Below the pieces are notes generated by a model, which ran no database searches, was not told the DNA's origin, and was given only the letters and a program-made list of their open reading frames with translations. The translations under genes and the position numbers were made by a program. From a virus (Duplodnaviria > Caudoviricetes), in IMG/VR virus record IMGVR_UViG_3300012979_000030, positions 1 through 64,000 of that record: a stretch of 64,000 nt of DNA. One strand, written 5' to 3'. This document shows positions 3,764 through 40,725 of this stretch, piece by piece (position 1 is the stretch's first letter; the number at the start of each line of letters is the position of its first letter).

Positions 3764-4777
3764 TTATTTACTATCCTTTATCTCTTCCAACAAATTATGT
3801 AGAACTTTTAATCCATCAATACATGTTTCTGGAAATTTTATATATTGTTGTGCTCTCATTCTTATGAATATATTTGGAACATAATCATTTCCAATACCCT
3901 CTAATCTTATACAATAGTTATCTAATAAGGAGTGCATTTCTTCTGTAAATTCCATACCATTTGTCTTTATTGCAAATATATGTGGTGCAGTATTTTGAAA
4001 TAATGAAAATCCATATTTAATCAAATCATAATGAAAATATTGTGTCATTACTTGTGTAAAACTATTCAATAAATCCTTTCTTTTTAACATTATATCTAAC
4101 AATTCTAAATAATCATAACCCCAATTTATTGCTTTAATTCCAAAATCATTATTTCTACTAATTAAAATACCCATATCATAACCCTCAATTAATGCATGAG
4201 CAGTTCCAACCACATAATCAAATATTGTATAATCTCTTGGAACCATAAACATTCCTTGAACATCATCCAAAACCATAATGTGTTCAATATTATTAATTAC
4301 CAATTGTTTCTTCAATGTTTCATAAAATAATTGTGGTGTTATCTCACCAGAAGATATTTGTGTTCCAATAATATATATAAATGCTTTCTTATATTTTTTA
4401 CACTCTGTTACAATAGTATCAACATTTAATGTGATAATATCTTTATAATGATTTAATATTAGTTTATTATTACATTTATTAACCAATTCTTTTACATTAT
4501 TATGTTCATTCATTGATGTTATTACTAATGTATCTTCATTAACATATTTTTTGAATAAATTTTTAATATGATTTGTAGCACAAGTATCAAACATGATATT
4601 ATGTGTTTTAGATGATATGTTACTAAATGGCATTCTACTAAAATATTCAGATTCCATTTTTTTATATTCTTTATCAGAATATAAAACAGCCTCTTCACTT
4701 CTTGTATTGGAAAGAATAAACATTTCCATATCATTTAATCTTCCTGCATTTAACCACCATTCTACTATATTATTCAT
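3764..4777 (-). CDS. Class V aminotransferase/cysteine desulfurase-fold protein lacking the PLP lysine
   Basis: ITSMNEHNNV, SSGEI, LDDVQG, DYVVGTAHAL (NifS-type SAHK lysine replaced by Ala). Confidence 0.6.
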   Translation of the reverse strand: MNNIVEWWLNAGRLNDMEMFILSNTRSEEAVLYSDKEYKKMESEYFSRMPFSNISSKTHNIMFDTCATNHIKNLFKKYVNEDTLVITSMNEHNNVKELVNKCNNKLILNHYKDIITLNVDTIVTECKKYKKAFIYIIGTQISSGEITPQLFYETLKKQLVINNIEHIMVLDDVQGMFMVPRDYTIFDYVVGTAHALIEGYDMGILISRNNDFGIKAINWGYDYLELLDIMLKRKDLLNSFTQVMTQYFHYDLIKYGFSLFQNTAPHIFAIKTNGMEFTEEMHSLLDNYCIRLEGIGNDYVPNIFIRMRAQQYIKFPETCIDGLKVLHNLLEEIKDSK

Positions 4778-4787
4778 ATTTTATCCT

Positions 4788-5315
4788 TTATTCAACATTA
4801 TTATACATTAATGGATTTTTATATATATCCTTTTCAAAATCTATTATTAATCTTGATTCATTTTCAGAAGATATAGTAAATTCTAAATTTTTAATTCTAT
4901 TTTCACCATTATCCAATACAACTATATCATCATTATCATAAACAACTCTTTTTGATTCTTTATTATCAAATTTTTGTTTTAAAGTATTATATATAATTGC
5001 AATTCGTGTATTTTCTTTGATAATAATTTCATTATTAGAAATATTTGTAATTGGTAATATAATTTCACATTTATTTGATGAATCATCACAATATCTGCAA
5101 CACTCAATAATAATCATTGGATATTCTTTTATATCGTGTTTAACAAATACATTTTCATTTCCACCACAATCTATGTATATACCTGTGTTATATTCAATTG
5201 ATTCATTTGGTTTAATATATATATCTCTATTATTTAAAATTTGTATTTCATCCAAATTAATTGGACTTACAACCAATTTTACAATATCATCTTTATTAAC
5301 AATATTAGTCACCAC
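4788..5315 (-). CDS. dUTPase-fold protein, catalytic motifs degenerate
   Basis: IKPNE...NTGIYI and EIILPITN...IIKENTRIA match the trimeric dUTPase scaffold; RSG and G.ID.DY.G motifs absent. Confidence 0.5.
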   Translation of the reverse strand: MVTNIVNKDDIVKLVVSPINLDEIQILNNRDIYIKPNESIEYNTGIYIDCGGNENVFVKHDIKEYPMIIIECCRYCDDSSNKCEIILPITNISNNEIIIKENTRIAIIYNTLKQKFDNKESKRVVYDNDDIVVLDNGENRIKNLEFTISSENESRLIIDFEKDIYKNPLMYNNVE

Positions 5316-32887: not shown

Positions 32888-33247
32888 TTATTCTGTTTCT
32901 TTTAATAATTCCAATAAATGACCAAGCATAATAGGTTCATTATATGATTCTTGTGGTATTTTATTAAATGATATGCTATTTTTGTCATTCAAAACATAAA
33001 TCATACCATTTTCACCAACAATAGTATTATCACCTACAACTCTCTTAATAATTGTTTTTACTTTCAAATCACAATTATCATATATATTGTTACCTATTTG
33101 TGGATATTGTGTTGTATAAACAATTTCATCATTATTAATTGTATTTTTCCATGATTTTGAACTATTTAATTTATTATACAAATCTGTATATATTACATTC
33201 AATCTATCATTGTTGATTTTTAATGTGGTACCTAATCTTATTGGCAT
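32888..33247 (-). CDS. Hypothetical protein
   Basis: 119-aa ORF with GGAG RBS; first gene of the minus-strand fibre operon. Confidence 0.55.
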   Translation of the reverse strand: MPIRLGTTLKINNDRLNVIYTDLYNKLNSSKSWKNTINNDEIVYTTQYPQIGNNIYDNCDLKVKTIIKRVVGDNTIVGENGMIYVLNDKNSISFNKIPQESYNEPIMLGHLLELLKETE

Positions 33248-33268
33248 TTATTTCTCCATATATAGAAT

Positions 33269-33276
33269 TATTTATA
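33269..33276 (-). promoter_or_regulatory. T4-type late-promoter-like TATAAATA
   Basis: Exact TATAAATA ~21 nt upstream of 33247; ATAAATA also precedes 12606, 17928, 25975, 33326, 40894, 50710 and 63315; AT-rich background weakens significance. Confidence 0.4.
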
Positions 33277-33325
33277 CAATTATTTACCACTCAAAAGAAC
33301 ATAAATAAAAATATAATGTAGGAGA

Positions 33326-33577
33326 ATGTATATGGAGAAATCTATTGTTGTTCCGAATGGAACTACTGTCCGATGGAGAGTATATTGTGATGGATATGAA
33401 GAAGAATCCGGTATTGAAACAATTACCGGAAATAAAAGACTTTTAGTTGATTTAGAGTTAATTCCGGTTGAAGTAGATATTATTGATTATGAATTTACAA
33501 ATGAAGATAATATTGTAACATTAACAAAATATATAGGTTCCGAAACAAACGTGATTATGCCTGTTTTAATGGGGTGA
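33326..33577 (+). CDS. Small adaptor: C-terminal half of PEGA-like domain plus LRR N-cap motif
   Basis: SIVVPNGTTVRWRVYCDGY...LVDL, then DYEFTNEDNIVTLTKYIGSETNVIMP; start may be 33332. Confidence 0.6.
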   Translation: MYMEKSIVVPNGTTVRWRVYCDGYEEESGIETITGNKRLLVDLELIPVEVDIIDYEFTNEDNIVTLTKYIGSETNVIMPVLMG

Positions 33578-33580
33578 TAA

Positions 33581-34780
33581 ATGGCAATAACATTAGCAAA
33601 AGAAATACTTGCATCTCCAACTACTTTTAGAAACAATTCAAATATAGTTTCTGTTGATACAATGAATATTCCATGGGAAAATGACTCTATGGAATATAGT
33701 TTCAGCAATTGTTATAACCTTAAAGAGGTTCATAACATTTCAAATGATGTTATAAATTTAAGTTACACTTTTTATAATTGTTCAAATTTAACAAAATGCC
33801 CGGAAATTCCATCAAATGTATCAAATATGAGTTATACATTTTGTGGTTGTAACAATTTGAATGTTGCACCAACAATACCAAATAGTGTAACAAACATTGT
33901 TGGTTGTTTTGCAGATTGCCATTCATTAACATATACACCAACAATTCCAGAAAATATAACCAATTTGCAATCTACATTTTATAATTGTTCTAATTTAACA
34001 TCATTTCCAACAATACCAAATAGTGTATCAGATATGACACAAACCTATGCACTTTGTAAAAATATTAATGGTGTTATCACATATCCAACAAATATTGAGT
34101 GCTTAAGAGGAACATATGCATATTGTGATAATATAACATCTATTCCAAACATACCAGCATCAGTAACAGATTTATATGGAACATTTGAGGGATGTATTAA
34201 TGTTAGTGGAGATATTTACATACTTTCTGACAAAGTTTTAGATTGTAAAAATATATTTAATGGAACTTCTCAAATAAAAAATATATACATTCCATTTAAT
34301 TTTACAAATGATTATGCTGAAACTCTATATTGTTATAGTTCTGATTATGGTTATGATTCAATTTATATAAAATGTTTCAAAAATTCAGCACAAGTTTATT
34401 ACCAAAACGGTTCTATAAATGATAACATCAAGAATATTCAATTCAATGAATCAAAAACAGAAATCATTGTTGAATCATATTCAAATACATCAACATATTC
34501 AATAGATACATCAAATAATATATTAATAAATCACACAAATGGTTCACAATCATTGACATTAAAGTCTTTTATTGATGCAGGATATGATGGATATGGAACA
34601 TATGATGGTGTATACATTAAAGACATTTTAACATCTCAACTTCCACAAATACCTGAAGATGTCGTAGATATAAATTTAAGTGAATATGAAACAAGAACAT
34701 CAAATTATAAAACAGAGTTAATAAAATATATTGGAACCAATACAAGTGTTGTTGTTCCATCAACTGGGTTTGAGGGGTAA
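33581..34780 (+). CDS. Leucine-rich-repeat (BspA/DUF285-like, 23-aa) protein 1
   Basis: Repeats P.IP.SV..M..TF..C..L; C-terminal KYIGTNTSVVVP cap motif. Confidence 0.8.
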   Translation: MAITLAKEILASPTTFRNNSNIVSVDTMNIPWENDSMEYSFSNCYNLKEVHNISNDVINLSYTFYNCSNLTKCPEIPSNVSNMSYTFCGCNNLNVAPTIPNSVTNIVGCFADCHSLTYTPTIPENITNLQSTFYNCSNLTSFPTIPNSVSDMTQTYALCKNINGVITYPTNIECLRGTYAYCDNITSIPNIPASVTDLYGTFEGCINVSGDIYILSDKVLDCKNIFNGTSQIKNIYIPFNFTNDYAETLYCYSSDYGYDSIYIKCFKNSAQVYYQNGSINDNIKNIQFNESKTEIIVESYSNTSTYSIDTSNNILINHTNGSQSLTLKSFIDAGYDGYGTYDGVYIKDILTSQLPQIPEDVVDINLSEYETRTSNYKTELIKYIGTNTSVVVPSTGFEG

Positions 34781-34782
34781 CA

Positions 34783-35832
34783 ATGAAGACAAGACAAACA
34801 TTTTTAACATCAACAACATTTCAAAATAATCAATTAATTGAACATATTGATTGTAATAATGTAGTATGGAAAGGAAATTCAATATCATATGCATTTGCTG
34901 AATGTTCAAATTTAAAATCAATATCCAATATTAACAATAATGTATCTATTGTAAGTTATGCATATAAAAACTGTTCAAATTTATCAACACCACCAACATT
35001 ACCAAATAGTGTAACAAATATTGAGGGTGTTTATCAAGGATGTTCATCATTAACTGATATTCCTCATATTCCAGACAGTGTAACAAATATGTCATATACA
35101 TTTGCTGAATGCACAAACATCAAAAAATTATCAACATTACCAAACAGTGTATCAAATATGTCATATACATTTAGAAATTGCTTAAATTTATCATCTGTTT
35201 CATATACGTTTGATAATGTTTATAATATGGAAGGAACATTCCAAAACTGTATTAGATTGAATGGTGATATTCAAATAATATCTGAAAAAATTGGAAATGC
35301 AAATCTTTGTTTTGATAATTCTGGAACTTCCACAAAAAATGTTTATATTCCATTCAATTCAACCAAAAGACATTTATATTGTTATAGTAGAAATATAGAA
35401 GATTATGGATTTGAAAAATATTATATAGATGTTTATCCAATAAATCTATATGGGACTCAATTACCAGCATATGATGACAATGGAATCAATACTGGATATA
35501 CATTTTGGTTTACATCTAAAGATATTAATAGACCATTATTAGGTAAACCAAGTTCTGATGGAATTGGAACAACATATTCTGGTATTACTAGGGATATTAA
35601 GAATGATACATATGTCAATTTAGATGAACCAATTCCAACTATTACATATAATTCATTTATAAATGCTGGTTATAAAACTGATGGGTCATTGGATAATGTT
35701 TATTTGAAAGATTTTACTGAATTAGTTGCACAAGGTTACACCATAACAAATACTGAATCAACAGTATATCTAAATACATATATTGGAATAGAAACAAATA
35801 TTATAACACCAAAGTATTCTTGGGTTCAATAG
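34783..35832 (+). CDS. LRR protein 2
   Basis: Same repeats; C-terminal TYIGIETNIITP. Confidence 0.8.
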   Translation: MKTRQTFLTSTTFQNNQLIEHIDCNNVVWKGNSISYAFAECSNLKSISNINNNVSIVSYAYKNCSNLSTPPTLPNSVTNIEGVYQGCSSLTDIPHIPDSVTNMSYTFAECTNIKKLSTLPNSVSNMSYTFRNCLNLSSVSYTFDNVYNMEGTFQNCIRLNGDIQIISEKIGNANLCFDNSGTSTKNVYIPFNSTKRHLYCYSRNIEDYGFEKYYIDVYPINLYGTQLPAYDDNGINTGYTFWFTSKDINRPLLGKPSSDGIGTTYSGITRDIKNDTYVNLDEPIPTITYNSFINAGYKTDGSLDNVYLKDFTELVAQGYTITNTESTVYLNTYIGIETNIITPKYSWVQ

Positions 35833-35840
35833 GAGAAATT

Positions 35841-37049
35841 ATGAGTGGATTATTACCAACAACACTAGTCAATACAACATATGCAAATAATAGAAACATT
35901 GTTTCTGTTGATTTAAATGAAGTTCCATTTTATAATAACTCAATGGCTGGTGCATTTAGTGGTTGTTCTAATCTAATATCTGTATCAAGTATCAATGAAA
36001 ATGTATCAAATATGTATCAAACATTTAATGGTTGTTCTAAATTAGTTAATGCACCAGATATTCCTAATGGTGTAACTGATATGAATGGGACATTTAGGTA
36101 TTGTTCTAAATTAGTTAATGCACCAGTTATCCCTAATAATGTTGTTAATATGAGTAGTACATTTAGTGGTTGTCAGAATCTAGTCAATGCACCTGTTATT
36201 CCTAATAGTGTAACTGATATGTATACTACATTTGGTTCATGTAGCAACCTAGTTAATGCACCAGATATTCCTAATAGTGTAACTAATATGCATCAAACAT
36301 TTTATTATTGTTATAATCTAGTTAATGCACCGGTTATCCCTAATAGTGTTGCTAAACTGTATCAAACATTTTATTACTGTAATAATCTAGTTAATGCACC
36401 TATTATCCCCAATAGTGTAACCAATATGTATAGAACATTTAGTGGTTGTCAGAATCTAGTCAATGCACCTGTTATTCCTAATAGTGTAACTGATATGAGT
36501 GGGACATTTAATGGTTGTTCTAATTTAGTCAATGCACCAAATATCCCTAATAGTGTTAAAGACATTAGTTATACATTTTCCAATTGTTCTAATCTAGTAA
36601 ATGCACCTGTAATTCCTAATAGTGTAACTAATATGAGATATACATTTAGTGGTTGTTCTAATCTAACAAGTAATATATACATACAATCAAAAAACATAAG
36701 AAATGCATATCATTGTTTTTATAATACATCACTAACAAAAAATGTATATATTCCATTTAAATATGAAAATGGTGAATATACAAAGACATATAATGCATTT
36801 GAAAATGCAGGATATACAGAAGAAACAATTGTTAATGGTGTTAAACTATTTGATAGTAATTATAACTACTATACTTTAACATTAAGAGTAATACCATCTG
36901 ATGCTGATGTTTTATCAGTAGATCCAAATATTAATGGATATATTGTTGATGTTACTGATTATGAATATCAATTAACAGATGGTGGTTCATCAGTAATATT
37001 AGGTAAATACATTGGTAATGATGTTGAGGAAATTATGCCAAATATTTAA
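35841..37049 (+). CDS. LRR protein 3
   Basis: LVNAPVIPNSVTNM..TF..C.N repeats; ATG at 35841 after AGGAGA; C-terminal KYIGNDVEEIMP. Confidence 0.85.
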   Translation: MSGLLPTTLVNTTYANNRNIVSVDLNEVPFYNNSMAGAFSGCSNLISVSSINENVSNMYQTFNGCSKLVNAPDIPNGVTDMNGTFRYCSKLVNAPVIPNNVVNMSSTFSGCQNLVNAPVIPNSVTDMYTTFGSCSNLVNAPDIPNSVTNMHQTFYYCYNLVNAPVIPNSVAKLYQTFYYCNNLVNAPIIPNSVTNMYRTFSGCQNLVNAPVIPNSVTDMSGTFNGCSNLVNAPNIPNSVKDISYTFSNCSNLVNAPVIPNSVTNMRYTFSGCSNLTSNIYIQSKNIRNAYHCFYNTSLTKNVYIPFKYENGEYTKTYNAFENAGYTEETIVNGVKLFDSNYNYYTLTLRVIPSDADVLSVDPNINGYIVDVTDYEYQLTDGGSSVILGKYIGNDVEEIMPNI

Positions 37050-37060
37050 AGGGACAAAAA

Positions 37061-38755
37061 ATGACAAAGGTTTATGTATCAAATGTTTATGCCAATAGTC
37101 AATTAACATTTATAAACAACAAAAATATCATTTCTATTGATTGTAATTATGTATCTTGGGTCAATAATACAATGTCTAATGCATTTAGAAATTGTTCTAA
37201 TCTAGTTTCTGTATCAAACATCAATGAAAATGTAACTGATATGAGGAATACATTTAGTAATTGTTGTAGTCTAGTTAATGCACCAGAAATTCCTAATAGT
37301 GTAATTGATATGTGGGAGACATTTAATAATTGTTATAATCTAATAAATGCACCAGTAATTCCTAATAGTGTAATTAGGATGGTTAATACATTTAATAATT
37401 GTTGTAGTCTAGTTAATGCACCTGTTATCCATAATGGTGTAACTGATATGAATGGGACATTTAGGTATTGTCGTAATCTAGTTAATGCGCCAGTAATTCC
37501 TAATAGTGTAACTAATATGAGTGATACATTTTATAATTGTTCTAATCTAATAAATGCACCAGAAATTCCTAATAGTGTAACTGATATGAGTGGAACATTT
37601 GGTTATTGTTCTAATCTAATAAATGCACCAGAAATTCCTAATAGTGTAATTAGTATGGAAGGGACATTTGCTGGTTGTAATCTAGTCAATTTTCCTGTTA
37701 TTCCTAATAGTGTAATTGATATGAGTACTACATTTGCTAGTTGTAATAATCTAGTCAATTCACCTATTATTCCTAATAGTGTAACTAGAATGTTTCGAAC
37801 ATTTTACGATTGTCCTAATCTAGTTGATGCACCTATTATACCTAATAGTGTTATTAATATGGAAAGAACATTTGATAATTGTACCAATCTAGTTGATGCA
37901 CCTATTATTCCAAATAGTGTTGTTAATATGAGTGGAACATTTTTTTATTGTCCTAATCTAGTCAATTTTCCTGTTATTCCTAATGGTGTAACTGATATGA
38001 GTTCTACATTTTATCATTGTGAAAAACTGCTTAATTCACCTGTTATCCCTAATAGTGTTACTAATATGTATGGGACATTTCAAAATTGTTTTAATCTAGT
38101 CAATGCACCAGTTATTCCTAATGGTGTAACTGATATGTGGAGGACATTTGATAATTGTCGTAATATAGTCAATGCACCTATTATACCTAATAGTGTAACT
38201 AAGATGGTTAATACATTTAATAATTGTTCTAATCTAACAGGTAATATATACATTCAATCAGTAAACATAAGTAATGCAATGGGTTGTTTTTATAATACAT
38301 CACTAACAAAAAATATATATATTCCATATACATGCACAATAGCATATTATAAAACTTTTAATAGTGGTGATACATATTACTTTGTAAAAAATTATAATAT
38401 TGGTGAACCAATTTATTATTATGATAATGGTCAATATACAGGACAAACAATAAAAAGTATTTTTGAGGCAGTTGGATTCTTCTATGACCAAAATTACAAA
38501 TACTATTATGATAATTCATCCGTTTCTGTTTCAGAAGAAGTTGAACCATATACAACACAAACATATAATTCATTTATTAATGCTGGTTATGATGAAAACG
38601 GAACAAAACATAATGTTTATTTAAAAGATTATAAAACATTATTTGATGTTAATTTAACAGATTACACACATACAATTGAAAATAATGTTGCAACAGTAAC
38701 AGCATATATAGGACAAGGTGGTGATATTACATTACCATCAACACTAAACAAATAG
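37061..38755 (+). CDS. LRR protein 4 (longest repeat tract)
   Basis: About 15 23-aa repeats; C-terminal AYIGQGGDITLP. Confidence 0.85.
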   Translation: MTKVYVSNVYANSQLTFINNKNIISIDCNYVSWVNNTMSNAFRNCSNLVSVSNINENVTDMRNTFSNCCSLVNAPEIPNSVIDMWETFNNCYNLINAPVIPNSVIRMVNTFNNCCSLVNAPVIHNGVTDMNGTFRYCRNLVNAPVIPNSVTNMSDTFYNCSNLINAPEIPNSVTDMSGTFGYCSNLINAPEIPNSVISMEGTFAGCNLVNFPVIPNSVIDMSTTFASCNNLVNSPIIPNSVTRMFRTFYDCPNLVDAPIIPNSVINMERTFDNCTNLVDAPIIPNSVVNMSGTFFYCPNLVNFPVIPNGVTDMSSTFYHCEKLLNSPVIPNSVTNMYGTFQNCFNLVNAPVIPNGVTDMWRTFDNCRNIVNAPIIPNSVTKMVNTFNNCSNLTGNIYIQSVNISNAMGCFYNTSLTKNIYIPYTCTIAYYKTFNSGDTYYFVKNYNIGEPIYYYDNGQYTGQTIKSIFEAVGFFYDQNYKYYYDNSSVSVSEEVEPYTTQTYNSFINAGYDENGTKHNVYLKDYKTLFDVNLTDYTHTIENNVATVTAYIGQGGDITLPSTLNK

Positions 38756-38764
38756 GAGAACTTT

Positions 38765-39589
38765 ATGACAACAGTTAACAAAGTAATTTACTCTAATACA
38801 ACATTTACAAATTGTTCAAATATTGTATCAGTTGATTGTAATTATGTATCTTGGACTAATAACTCAATGTCTAATGCATTTAAAGATTGTTCCAATCTCA
38901 AATCTGTTAATAATATAAGTAAAAGTGTTACTAATATGTATTATACATTTAGGAATTGTCAAAATCTAGTTAATACTCCAGTAATTCCTAATAGTGTGGT
39001 TAATATGTATGGGACATTTCATTATTGTTATAATCTAGTCAATGCACCTATTATACCTAATAGTGTAACTGATATGAGTTATACATTTTATAGTTGTCAG
39101 AATCTAGTCAATGCACCAATAATTCCTAATAGTGTAACTAGTATGAATATGACATTTTATTGGTGCAAAAACATAGTCAATGCACCCATCATACCTAATA
39201 GTGTAACTTATATGAGTGGGACATTTGAAGATTGTTCTAATATAGTCAATGCACCCATCATACCTAATAGTGTAACTTATATGAGTGGGACATTTGAAGA
39301 TTGTTCTAATATAGTCAATGCACCTATTATACCTAATAGTGTAACTTATATGTTTGGGACATTTTCTAATTGTTATAATCTAAAGGGTAATGTATATATT
39401 CAATCAGAAAACATAACAAATGCATATAATTGTTTTTATTGTGCTTTTAATACACCATTGACAAAAAATGTATATATTCCATTTAAATATGAAAATGGTG
39501 AATATACAAAGACATATAATTCATTTATTAATGTAGGATATAATGAAAATGGAACAAAACATAATGTTTATTTAAAGAATATTAACTAA
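38765..39589 (+). CDS. LRR protein 5 (no C-terminal cap motif)
   Basis: Same repeats; ends NVYLKNIN*. Confidence 0.85.
   Translation: MTTVNKVIYSNTTFTNCSNIVSVDCNYVSWTNNSMSNAFKDCSNLKSVNNISKSVTNMYYTFRNCQNLVNTPVIPNSVVNMYGTFHYCYNLVNAPIIPNSVTDMSYTFYSCQNLVNAPIIPNSVTSMNMTFYWCKNIVNAPIIPNSVTYMSGTFEDCSNIVNAPIIPNSVTYMSGTFEDCSNIVNAPIIPNSVTYMFGTFSNCYNLKGNVYIQSENITNAYNCFYCAFNTPLTKNVYIPFKYENGEYTKTYNSFINVGYNENGTKHNVYLKNIN
39173..39324 (+). repeat. Exact 69-bp coding tandem duplication
   Basis: ATAGTCAATGCACCCATCATACCTAATAGT...GAAGATTGTTCTAAT at 39173 and 39242; third copy begins at 39311. Confidence 0.9.
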
Positions 39590-39636
39590 TTATAATCATA
39601 TACAATTATAGTTAAAATTAAATGTCATAAAAATAT

Positions 39637-39660
39637 TGAGGGGATAAATCAATCCCCTCA
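39637..39660. terminator. Hairpin terminator between convergent genes
   Basis: TGAGGGGAT-aaatca-ATCCCCTCA perfect 9-bp stem. Confidence 0.7.
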
Positions 39661-39664
39661 TTAA

Positions 39665-40663
39665 TTATTCACATTCTTTTTCCAATTCTTCAAGAAATTC
39701 TTTGATTCCAATTCTTGGAATAATTCCATGTAATTTATTACCCATATAACAATTTCTCATAACATCATTATAAATGTCAGAAAAAATATTATCTGGTATC
39801 TTATCTTTAATTTCTCTATAAACTTCTTTATAATATTTCAAACAAGAATTCCAATTCTGTTCAATAAATCTTTTATCTCTTTCTTCTGTTTCAATATAAT
39901 ATTCATATAAATTGCACAAAATCTGAACCTTTTGTTGCATAATATTACCATTAAATGGTGCAACTTTTTCAGCATATTTAACTGCATAAATCATATTTTC
40001 TGTATATCCAACAAATGATTGATCATATGAATATTGTGCATTGTTAATTCTTGTAATAGAATCTTCTTTAAAATGCCAATAATATGTAATATCTTGTATA
40101 AACTTGATTTGTTCATTTTGATTTGATACTAATTTACAAATCATATTAAAACCATTATCTTCATTGGCACGACTACCATTTAAGAACCTAATATTATACT
40201 TGTTTATAAAATCTCTTTTATACAATTTACCAAACATCCATACAGAATCATTTGGATGTCCAATATATGTTGTTTTTTGATCTTCCAAAAATTGACTGAA
40301 CACACAAGAAATTCTTGGATCAGATAAGATTTGTAATCTCAATGTTTTTAATGCAAATGCACCACTAAACGTGTCATCAGCATCAATAAACATCAACAAT
40401 GGGTTTGATGTATTATCAATACCATATTGTCTTGCATCCCCAGGACCACCATTTTTCTCCATAACAATTTCTCTAATTTTCATATATGGAGAAAACATAT
40501 CAACAAAATTTTTATAACCAATTCCATCAGCATCATTTACAATTGTTACTTCAACATCATCAACAATTTCTTGTGATGCAATACTCGATAATGTTCTTAA
40601 CAATGTATTTTGTGCTTTGTATGCAGGAATAATAATATCTATTTTTGGCAAACTATTTTCCAT
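39665..40663 (-). CDS. Glycosyltransferase family 2
   Basis: IDIIIPAYKA, IVND, NGGPGDARQYG, FIDADD, NEDNGF; ATG at 40663. Confidence 0.9.
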   Translation of the reverse strand: MENSLPKIDIIIPAYKAQNTLLRTLSSIASQEIVDDVEVTIVNDADGIGYKNFVDMFSPYMKIREIVMEKNGGPGDARQYGIDNTSNPLLMFIDADDTFSGAFALKTLRLQILSDPRISCVFSQFLEDQKTTYIGHPNDSVWMFGKLYKRDFINKYNIRFLNGSRANEDNGFNMICKLVSNQNEQIKFIQDITYYWHFKEDSITRINNAQYSYDQSFVGYTENMIYAVKYAEKVAPFNGNIMQQKVQILCNLYEYYIETEERDKRFIEQNWNSCLKYYKEVYREIKDKIPDNIFSDIYNDVMRNCYMGNKLHGIIPRIGIKEFLEELEKECE

Positions 40664-40696
40664 ATTCTTTTCCTTATAATTATTACAAACTTCTTT

Positions 40697-40725
40697 ATTA
40701 TAATCATTATACATTACTTAGTCAA
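40697..40725 (-). promoter_or_regulatory. sigma70-like promoter
   Basis: TTGACT-17 nt-TATAAT upstream of the GT2 gene. Confidence 0.6.

What the first reader, a model, noticed from the sequence alone, without database searches (positions are those of the whole stretch)
33326..39589. LRR operon in which each gene ends with the N-cap of the next: an ordered head-to-tail filament by cap complementation?
Seen: five consecutive genes end with the same motif (DYEF..VTLTKYIG..NVIMP; EYET..ELIKYIG..SVVVP; GYTI..YLNTYIG..NIITP; DYEY..ILGKYIG..EEIMP; DYTH..TVTAYIG..DITLP). Each following gene starts abruptly at T(F/Y).N..NIVSVD. Known: in BspA/TpLRR proteins, Y....VTITGY.G....V.IP is the N-terminal cap that directly precedes the first repeat within one chain. 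Here the first gene (83 aa) has a cap but no LRR, the four middle genes have LRR plus cap, and the last has LRR but no cap: initiator, extenders, terminator. Junction frames differ and most genes have their own RBS, which argues against readthrough. Inference: subunits polymerise in trans by donor-cap complementation, analogous to pilus donor-strand exchange, forming a modular receptor-binding fibre.
Basis: partly seen in the sequence, partly recalled or inferred. Interest (0 to 1): 0.88.

Follow-up and report, generated by a model that had tools for sequence, protein, structure and literature searches.

The report
Split LRR cap joins phage proteins
In an uncultured large phage of the ruminant gut, six neighbouring genes in the tail-fibre region are all cut at the same point inside a leucine-rich-repeat capping unit, so each protein probably plugs its tail hairpin into the head of the next to build a chain of binding modules; this is predicted, not shown by experiment.

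Summary
Six co-directional genes (33332-39589) each have their own ribosome-binding site. A roughly 30-residue 'cap' hairpin (Y..T....V.LT.YIG....V..P) ends genes 1-5 and occurs nowhere else in the 106-kb record. Genes 2-6 are BspA-type LRR proteins that begin just after the point where the cap would sit. In solved and fused relatives, the cap and the following LRR lie in one chain.

In 11 related uncultured-phage loci I counted 27 C-terminal caps followed at once by such an LRR gene, and 4 that are not. The donors include fibre-like proteins of 1171 and 1751 aa. At least 7 junctions in relatives are fused into one reading frame. So the split is a recurrent, conserved gene fission at one fixed point, not an error.

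A controlled complex prediction places the gene-1 cap on the N-terminal end of gene 2 (ipSAE 0.78; best control 0.00). This pass may partly reflect memory of solved structures that carry the cap in the same chain.

Best reading: non-covalent head-to-tail docking by cap complementation. A strict subunit order, and attachment to the virion, are not shown.

The principle has precedents (Tuc2009 BppU-BppA; Goslar DUF7941 filaments). This scan has also noted three other split-domain joints on other phage DNA. I rate it a new variant of a known kind.

The parts
33300..33307 (+). CATAAATA, a candidate T4-type late promoter for the operon
   Evidence: this is the only + strand YATAAATA between 32479 and 43039, and there is none inside the operon. 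The motif is depleted in the window (20 found, 52 expected). Its function is inferred.
33332..33577 (+). Gene 1, the starter (81 aa; 83 aa if it starts at 33326): the C-terminal two thirds of a PEGA/Head_fiber_dimeric-like domain plus a cap, with no LRR
   Evidence: PF25641 positions 22-59 of 61; 14.4 bits, below cut-off; residues 6-48 align to residues 72-112 of the 132-aa protein, E 3e-5.
33485..33571 (+). Cap 1 (donor hairpin)
   Evidence: E 3.4e-16; predicted to bind gene 2 residues 1-28.
33581..34780 (+). Gene 2, an extender (399 aa): acceptor leader, LRR_5, insert, then cap 2 at 34679-34771
   Evidence: (58.6 bits).
34783..35832 (+). Gene 3, an extender (349 aa): acceptor leader, LRR_5, insert, then cap 3 at 35731-35823
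   Evidence: in the AF2 monomer the LRR has pLDDT above 90 and the cap only 43-67.
35841..37049 (+). Gene 4, an extender (402 aa from ATG 35841): LRR_5, a short PEGA-like remnant, then cap 4 at 36954-37046
   Evidence: (75.4 bits).
37061..38755 (+). Gene 5, an extender (564 aa): LRR_5, insert, then cap 5 at 38657-38752
   Evidence: (87.2 bits).
38765..39589 (+). Gene 6, the terminator (274 aa): acceptor leader plus LRR_5; it ends right after the ..VYLKNIN block and has no cap
   Evidence: (53.4 bits).
39637..39660 (.). Two-way terminator-like hairpin that closes the operon
   Evidence: the only terminator-like site in 33000-39900.
26006..26404 (-). Possible upstream link (inferred, and outside the finding): a 132-aa protein with one whole PEGA/HFD-like domain that ends with only the first strands of a second one, the part that gene 1 lacks
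   Evidence: An adjacent-gene version of the same PEGA split is seen in L019.
39665..40714 (-). Family-2 glycosyltransferase, a conserved neighbour of the LRR array
   Evidence: Glycos_transf_2 (Pfam) lies next to the arrays in L003, L004 and L006, and closely similar proteins (by eye) do so in L016, L017 and L018.

Best explanation
The six genes form one late operon that encodes separate proteins. These proteins are the pieces of what is, in other phages, a single multi-module BspA-type LRR protein. Every cut lies in the loop between the last strand of the N-terminal cap hairpin (..V.xP) and the leader strand of the next LRR. Each upstream protein therefore carries, as its last ~30 residues, the cap that the next protein lacks. 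After translation, which is probably coupled given the 2-11 nt gaps, the cap of protein n joins the leader and first LRR strand of protein n+1 in a shared beta-sheet. This rebuilds the normal cap-LRR unit across two chains and links the subunits head to tail without a covalent bond. Gene 1 has a cap but no LRR and would start the chain. Genes 2-5 would extend it. Gene 6 has no cap and would end it. The product would be a string of up to five LRR modules, most likely a host-binding appendage attached to a fibre. Shown here: the sequence anatomy, its conservation, and the existence of fused counterparts. Predicted: the cap-to-LRR interface for the gene 1 / gene 2 pair. Inferred: chain formation along all six proteins, attachment to the virion, and a receptor-binding role.
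For: (1) The cap profile hits the genome only at the five C-termini. Y, G and P are invariant across 16 caps that are 25-43% identical.
(2) The cap and LRR lie in one chain in solved 4GT6, in L007 (a 1161-aa ORF with three LRR modules joined by two caps) and in L010 (a 708-aa ORF). In large proteins the cap occurs up to 15 times per chain.
(3) In 11 loci, 27 C-terminal caps are followed within -1 to 14 nt (110 nt in one case) by an LRR gene that starts with the acceptor leader; 4 caps are not.
(4) The donors are not only LRR proteins. They include a 1171-aa LamG-type fibre protein (L017), a 1751-aa protein (L011), and PEGA-domain adaptors of 189, 209 and 424 aa. These have no LRR of their own for the cap to fold onto.
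(5) Among arrays whose end was seen, all but L010 and L012 end with an LRR gene that lacks the cap.
(6) Complex prediction of the gene-1 cap (39 aa) with gene 2 residues 1-356: ipSAE 0.78 in three runs, best of 3 controls 0.00. That mark was reached by 58 of 80 solved complexes and 2 of 110 mismatched pairs. The runs share at least 94% of contacts, and partner pLDDT is at least 88. The interface is gene 2 residues 1-12, 14-16, 19, 21-28, that is, the leader plus the first LRR strand.
(7) In the AF2 model of the fused L007 fragment, the cap that has an LRR behind it scores pLDDT 88-92. The second cap in the same model has no acceptor and scores 64-71. Gene 3's own cap in a monomer model scores 43-67.
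(8) There is one promoter-like motif before gene 1 and one terminator after gene 6. The split state is kept in contigs from four studies.
Against: No experiment exists, and binding is only predicted. The prediction may pass from memory of solved LRR structures that carry the cap in the same chain (4GT6, 4H09), and my own alignments were used, so the calibration holds only roughly. Only one of the five junctions was modelled, and no non-cognate pair was tried. At least 8 array-first LRR genes in relatives have an acceptor-type N-terminus but no cap donor upstream, so an uncapped LRR seems viable and the cap is not the only way to attach. Four C-terminal caps have no LRR gene next to them. In L006 one cap sits at an N-terminus in front of a PEGA-like domain, so the hairpin is not strictly an LRR part. 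Virion location is inferred only from neighbouring genes. No RNA data were found.
Confidence: 0.65

Rival explanations
1. Independent paralogous LRR proteins. The C-terminal hairpin is a leftover inter-module linker from a fused ancestor and binds nothing in trans. Each protein acts alone or attaches by some other means.
For: Fused ancestors or relatives exist. At least 8 LRR genes in relatives have no donor upstream, and 4 caps have no acceptor next to them. One ancestral cut followed by tandem gene duplication could explain a constant cut point within a single array.
Against: The hairpin keeps its invariant Y, G and P at 25-43% identity, whereas a useless tail would decay. In most arrays the last LRR gene lacks it. 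It also ends non-LRR fibre and adaptor proteins precisely where an LRR gene follows. The LRR proteins have only 12-17 residues before the first repeat and no other attachment domain. Mixed fused and split states at the same point in many lineages imply repeated fission or fusion events, all at this one site.
Confidence: 0.17
2. The cap binds acceptors without preference, or binds copies of its own protein. The products would then be homopolymers, rings or random copolymers started by gene 1 and stopped by gene 6, rather than the ordered 1-2-3-4-5-6 chain.
For: The residues in the predicted interface (cap L22, Y25 and V/I32-34; acceptor F/Y16 and the I/V-S-V-D strand) are the most conserved positions in both alignments, so no pair-specific code is visible. 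In L010 the free cap of the last protein and the free acceptor of the first protein are the only unpaired ends.
Against: Gene order matches the donor-then-acceptor order at 27 junctions, and the junctions are tight enough for coupled translation, which would favour neighbour pairing. Not tested directly.
Confidence: 0.12
3. Recoding (stop read-through at the two in-frame junctions, -1 frameshifts at the other three) makes one polyprotein, and the separate ORFs are only apparent.
For: Every junction is either in frame or shifted by -1, never +1. A GGGG run lies at junction 2->3.
Against: Junction 1->2 has two consecutive stops (TGA TAA). Three different stop codons are used, so no stop reassignment fits. 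No canonical slippery heptamer is present. Each junction has a Shine-Dalgarno sequence plus ATG at normal spacing. The -1 offsets follow simply from the compact stop-NN-ATG spacing also seen in relatives.
Confidence: 0.03
4. Self-capping: the C-terminal hairpin of each extender folds back onto the N-terminal end of its own LRR.
For: Each extender contains both parts. The monomer model cannot exclude it, because no contact read-out was available.
Against: Starters with a cap but no LRR (gene 1, and the 1171-aa and 1751-aa proteins) cannot do this. In gene 3 only about 8 residues separate the last ordered C-terminal element (helix 312-315) from the hairpin (319-333), while the N-terminal end lies a whole solenoid (residues ~10-190) away; this is a geometric inference. 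The cap has low confidence (pLDDT 43-67) in the monomer model.
Confidence: 0.03

Closest known systems
BspA-type (Pfam LRR_5, PF13306) cell-surface LRR proteins with an N-terminal cap hairpin in the same chain, e.g. PDB 4GT6, 4H09, 4FS7
   Same: Same repeat family. The same cap motif sits directly before the first repeat (4GT6 residues ~11-45 align to the cap). Same fold (4fs7 Z 19.9, rmsd 5.6, 304 aligned; 4gt6 Z 14.7, rmsd 6.9, 291 aligned). Multi-module proteins carry many cap-LRR units.
   Different: Here the cap and its LRR are encoded by different, consecutive genes. The cap is the C-terminal tail of the preceding protein.
Lactococcus phage Tuc2009 baseplate: the BppU C-terminal beta-hairpin completes a beta-sheet of BppA domain 2 (crystal structure, PMC4742702)
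   Same: In a phage adhesion device, a ~25-residue C-terminal hairpin of one protein completes a domain of an accessory binding protein in trans.
   Different: The partner fold differs (a titin-like sandwich, not an LRR cap). It is a single joint, not repeated along a chain. No sequence relation is known or was tested.
DUF7941 fibre proteins of Chimalliviridae phage Goslar (bioRxiv 10.64898/2026.04.21.720040)
   Same: Large-phage host-recognition proteins, some with LRR or beta-helix domains. They are proposed from AlphaFold predictions to assemble head to tail by docking one protomer's C-terminal region on the next protomer's N-terminal domain, and filaments were seen for purified gp22.
   Different: The docking module differs (DUF7941; there was no such Pfam hit here). 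Those are mostly homo-oligomers and do not involve a domain cut between genes.
Donor-strand complementation in chaperone-usher pili (textbook knowledge)
   Same: The general idea: a subunit with an incomplete fold is completed by a strand from the neighbouring subunit, which gives a polar chain with defined end subunits.
   Different: Those use an Ig-like pilin fold, an N-terminal donor strand, and a periplasmic chaperone and usher that drive strand exchange. None of that is seen here. The donor here is a C-terminal hairpin, and no exchange step is implied.
Other split-domain joints noted by this scan in uncultured phages (e1-5348573, e1-5690838, e1-5856786)
   Same: A small beta domain is cut at a gene boundary in tail or fibre gene clusters and is read as docking by rebuilding the domain across two chains.
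   Different: Different domains are involved (a two-Cys repeat, a jelly-roll, a collagen knob). Those are AI notes that I did not test.

Membership tests
BspA-type LRR (Pfam PF13306 LRR_5) | Profile match above the curated gathering score | tested here: met
   Genes 2-6 score 58.6, 45.4, 75.4, 87.2 and 53.4 bits against a cut-off of 27.7. Gene 1 has no match.
BspA-type LRR (Pfam PF13306 LRR_5) | LRR solenoid fold like the solved family members | tested here: met
   The AF2 model of the related L007 fragment matches 4fs7 (Z 19.9, rmsd 5.6, 304 aligned), 4fd0 (Z 18.4), 4fdw, 4gt6 and 4h09. The gene 3 LRR is modelled at pLDDT above 90.
Canonical single-chain cap-LRR architecture (as in 4GT6) | Cap hairpin and the LRR it caps lie in one polypeptide | tested here: not met
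   In the window every cap is followed by a stop codon, and the LRR starts at a new ATG with its own ribosome-binding site. The feature is met in relatives L007 and L010.
Chaperone-usher donor-strand complementation | Ig-like pilin fold lacking its last strand, with a chaperone and an usher | tested here: not met
   The acceptor is an LRR. No chaperone or usher family appeared in the Pfam or PHROG scans of the proteins examined. The remaining window proteins were not scanned.
Tuc2009 BppU-BppA type hairpin joint | The C-terminal beta-hairpin of one virion protein completes a sheet of the partner | tested here: inconclusive
   This is predicted for the gene 1 / gene 2 pair (cap strands pair with the acceptor leader and the first LRR strand), not observed. 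Homology to BppU or BppA was not tested.
DUF7941 head-to-tail fibre proteins (Goslar) | Presence of the DUF7941 module | tested here: inconclusive
   No such family appeared in the Pfam scan of the six proteins at E up to 0.1. I did not confirm that the model is in this Pfam copy.
PEGA / Head_fiber_dimeric (PF08308 / PF25641), for the N-terminal part of gene 1 | A complete domain above the gathering score | tested here: not met
   14.4 bits against a cut-off of 30. Only profile positions 22-59 of 61 are covered. The region aligns to the second part of the whole domain in the 132-aa protein. It reads as a partial domain.

The most novel reading that the evidence does not exclude
The fibre of this phage group is built wholly from separately encoded pieces joined by rebuilt split domains, using at least two kinds of joint. 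One is the LRR cap, which links gene 1 through gene 6. The other is a split PEGA/Head_fiber_dimeric-like sandwich, which links the 132-aa protein beside the 1462-aa fibre gene to gene 1. Subunit order would be set by gene order through coupled translation, so the phage can change the length and content of its host-binding chain simply by gaining, losing, fusing or splitting genes.
Probability: 0.25. Interest if true: 0.8.

Novelty: new variant of a known kind. Interest (0 to 1): 0.66.

Why it matters
If the joints form as predicted, these phages assemble a multi-module host-binding appendage from interchangeable gene-sized parts with one standard plug and socket. That would explain how arrays of LRR genes can grow, shrink, fuse and split between related phages without losing attachment. 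It would give a rule for annotating many 'hypothetical' LRR genes and 40-100-aa miniproteins in gut viromes. It would also offer a natural, genetically encoded head-to-tail connector for LRR scaffolds that protein engineers could reuse. And it adds an iterated, multi-subunit case to the few known phage joints made by completing a partner's beta-sheet.

Tried and rejected
- DNA search of the named-phage collection found no match. A protein search there found only weak LRR hits in Escherichia phages.
- The first scan of viral contigs with gene 3 alone found nothing. An alignment query then worked.
- The Python machine was lost. The planned automatic ORF classification was replaced by profile searches and by reading ORF lists, so the junction tally was made by hand.
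- The sigma-70 promoter scan was uninformative (57 found, 70 expected).
- There are no tRNA genes in the window.
- No RNA holder was listed among the public runs, so nothing can be said about expression.
- The gene 3 monomer model gives no contact read-out, so self-capping could only be argued from confidence values and geometry.
- Literature searches for a split or trans LRR cap, and for BspA-like proteins in phage fibres, found nothing on this point.
- Stop-codon reassignment was rejected: three different stop codons are used and there is a double stop.
- Sequencing error or recent pseudogene decay was rejected, on four grounds: the independent assembly L001; contigs from four studies with no listed indels at the junctions; ribosome-binding sites at every junction; and intact 274-564-aa ORFs in a genome with 26% G+C.
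- Only one complex job was allowed, so cognate versus non-cognate pairs could not be compared.
Full report
**The observation**

The region holds six ORFs on the + strand. Their stop codons are TGA+TAA, TAA, TAG, TAA, TAG and TAA. Relative to the preceding gene, the frame offsets are 0, -1, -1, -1 and 0. Every junction carries a GGAG/GGGG-type ribosome-binding site a few bases before an ATG, and the gaps between genes are 2-11 nt. Gene 1 probably starts at ATG 33332, because AGGAG lies at 33320-33324 and the 95%-identical relative is 81 aa long. Gene 4 probably starts at ATG 35841.

Genes 2-6 are clear Pfam LRR_5 (BspA-type) proteins. Gene 1 has no LRR. A profile built from 14 caps finds exactly five places in the 106.5-kb virus record, namely the C-termini of genes 1-5, with E from 3e-16 to 1e-11. 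The pattern is therefore real and not a chance pattern. The window comes from an IMG/VR record judged about 41% complete, with about 26% G+C. The operon lies among tail-fibre-type genes.

**What the motif is**

In solved 4GT6, a BspA-type cell-surface protein, the same motif lies at residues ~11-45, directly before the first repeat of the same chain. A search of 1.84 billion representative proteins with the cap profile found 911 hits. The best are very large proteins with up to 15 caps per chain. About 24 of the best 150 carry the cap at the extreme C-terminus, and these include miniproteins of 42-116 aa.

Related phages also show the fused form:
- L007 has one 1161-aa ORF with three LRR modules joined by two caps.
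- L010 has a 708-aa ORF that reads LRR-cap-LRR-cap.
- Profile coordinates indicate further fused junctions in L008, L009 and L012.

In the fused form, the cap's last strand (..V.TP) is followed after about 15 residues by the ..AF.NN..I.SVD strand. In the window, the stop codon, the ribosome-binding site and the new ATG lie inside exactly that short stretch.

**Conservation of the split**

I read ORFs in loci from ENA, Logan and IMG/VR assemblies that share only ~28-58% identity with the window proteins. The arrays are as follows:
- L004 repeats the whole layout: an 82-aa starter, five LRR proteins that end in a cap, and a last protein without one.
- L003 has two donor-acceptor pairs, and L006 has three.
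- L017 has a 1171-aa LamG-type fibre protein ending in a PEGA-like domain plus cap, followed 14 nt later by a 490-aa LRR protein without a cap.
- L018 has a 189-aa two-PEGA adaptor with a cap, then a 473-aa LRR protein.
- L019 has a 424-aa protein with PEGA and cap, then an LRR protein with a cap.
- L011 has a 1751-aa protein with a cap, then three LRR proteins ending in a variant cap, then another LRR gene at the contig end.
- L009 and L012 mix fused and split junctions.

By hand count, 27 C-terminal caps (about three of them degenerate) are followed at once by a gene that starts with the acceptor leader. Four are not: the L010 708-aa protein, the L019 357-aa protein, the L012 1084-aa protein and the L016 48-aa cap-only ORF. 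Most arrays whose end was seen close with an LRR gene that lacks the cap; L010 and L012 end in a cap.

On the other hand, at least 8 array-first LRR genes have an ordinary acceptor N-terminus but no donor upstream. The cap is therefore not indispensable for an LRR protein.

The split state in the window's own lineage is stable. Assembly L001, from a different sample, keeps the boundaries it reaches, through the start of gene 4, even though its gene 2 has one repeat more. Contigs from four ruminant-gut studies bridge all five junctions, and no insertion or deletion is listed there.

**Structure predictions**

Gene 2's own cap was removed, and my own alignments were supplied for both chains.

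The result: ipSAE 0.78 in all three runs, with the best of three controls at 0.00. According to the tool's calibration, 58 of 80 solved complexes and 2 of 110 mismatched pairs reached that mark. The runs agree in at least 94% of contacts, and the partner's pLDDT is at least 88.

The interface is gene 2 residues 1-12, 14-16, 19 and 21-28. The cap strand N-V-I-M pairs with gene 2's I-V-S-V-D, and the cap strand V-T-L-T-K-Y pairs with the leader (residues 9-16). This is the arrangement expected of the normal same-chain cap.

One caveat must be stated. Solved BspA-type structures contain this unit in one chain, so the pass may show likeness rather than binding.

The AF2 models agree with the complex result. 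In the natural fused fragment of L007, the cap that has an LRR behind it scores pLDDT 88-92, while the second cap in the same model has nothing behind it and scores 64-71. In the gene 3 monomer, the LRR scores above 90 and its own C-terminal cap only 43-67. The fold matches 4fs7 (Z 19.9, rmsd 5.6, 304 aligned), 4fd0, 4fdw, 4gt6 and 4h09.

**Mechanism**

The best reading is that the operon encodes the pieces of a multi-module LRR protein, cut at one tolerated point. The pieces would re-associate by rebuilding the cap-LRR sheet across chains.

The strongest arguments come from comparison with relatives. The cap is conserved where it would otherwise be useless. It ends proteins that have no LRR of their own exactly where an LRR gene follows. 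In most arrays the last LRR gene lacks it. And the fused and split forms alternate at the same point.

Two further features suggest the products are made together and in similar amounts, although this is inferred. The junctions are tight. There is also a single CATAAATA before gene 1 and a single terminator after gene 6.

Several things are not shown. No binding has been measured. The subunit order is unproven, because the predicted contact residues are the most conserved ones, so promiscuous pairing is quite possible. Attachment to the virion and a role in receptor binding are also unproven.

**How gene 1 may be anchored**

This part lies outside the finding and follows an earlier scan note, e1-5950288. 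Gene 1 residues 6-48 align with the second part of the PEGA/Head_fiber_dimeric-like domain of the 132-aa protein at 26006-26404 on the - strand (E 3e-5). That 132-aa protein ends with only the first strands of a second copy of the domain.

In L019 the same domain is cut between two adjacent genes. An LRR protein ends with the first strands, and the next protein starts at PEGA profile position 32 of 71. A second type of split joint is therefore plausible, but I could not model it.

**Comparison with what is known**

The proteins are members of the BspA-type LRR family. The single-chain cap architecture that usually goes with that family is not met here.

A joint in which a C-terminal hairpin completes a partner's sheet has been solved for Tuc2009 BppU-BppA (PMC4742702). 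Head-to-tail assembly of large-phage fibre proteins has been proposed for the DUF7941 proteins of Goslar. Pilus donor-strand complementation is only a conceptual parallel.

This scan has recorded three other split-domain joints on other phage DNA. I did not test those notes. I found no paper that describes an LRR cap supplied in trans.

**Verdict**

I class this as a new variant of a known kind, of fairly high interest. It is widespread in one group of ruminant-gut phages (records of animal gut and faeces) and can be tested directly.

Noticed in passing
window 26006-26404 (-) and 33332-33480 (+); L019 9001-9768 and 9778-10725: A PEGA/Head_fiber_dimeric-like domain also seems to be cut between proteins. 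The 132-aa protein ends with only the first strands of the domain, and gene 1 begins with the rest. In L019 the two halves lie at the end and the start of adjacent genes.
   Followed up: partly
window 39665-40714 (-); L003 8098-9114, L004 17196-18221, L006 14830-15831, L016 12340-13347, L017 11458-12459, L018 6685-7704: A family-2 glycosyltransferase sits next to the LRR array in every locus examined (Pfam hit in L003, L004 and L006; by sequence likeness in the others). Its role, for example glycosylating the LRR proteins, is unknown.
   Followed up: no
L016 15625-15771 (-); G008 4775-4861; G009 209972-210058; P0239, P0241, P0248, P0249, P0267: Conserved cap-only miniproteins of 42-56 aa. In L016 the ORF follows a 330-aa fibre gene and has no LRR gene beside it; the record's one acceptor-type LRR gene lies about 6 kb away on the other strand.
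   Followed up: partly
L011 9292-9426, 11006-11140, 12915-13049; P0019, P0027, P0029, P0106: A second class of C-terminal cap lacks the Y.G motif (..VTL.DAP.DA.G.V.FPN). It is likewise followed by acceptor LRR genes.
   Followed up: partly
window 33581-34780 versus L001 6784-8052; window 35841-39589: Gene 2 differs by one 23-aa LRR repeat between two 95%-identical strains. Contigs from other samples show many skips and back-joints among the repeats of genes 4-6, which suggests repeat shuffling or assembly confusion.
   Followed up: no
whole window: YATAAATA (the T4 late-promoter type) occurs 20 times against about 52 expected. A divergent pair lies in the 78-nt gap before gene 1 (33269-33276 on the - strand, 33300-33307 on the + strand).
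   Followed up: partly
L006 9295-10008: A 237-aa protein begins with a cap-like hairpin (residues 21-36) followed by a PEGA-like domain rather than an LRR, so the hairpin is not used only as an LRR cap.
   Followed up: no
L007 12800-13426; L004 16300-16699: Array-terminal proteins in two distant loci share a C-terminal motif (..FYLYNQ...KTFSL.NVS..GLL..), which may mark a common distal tip domain. The window's gene 6 lacks it.
   Followed up: no
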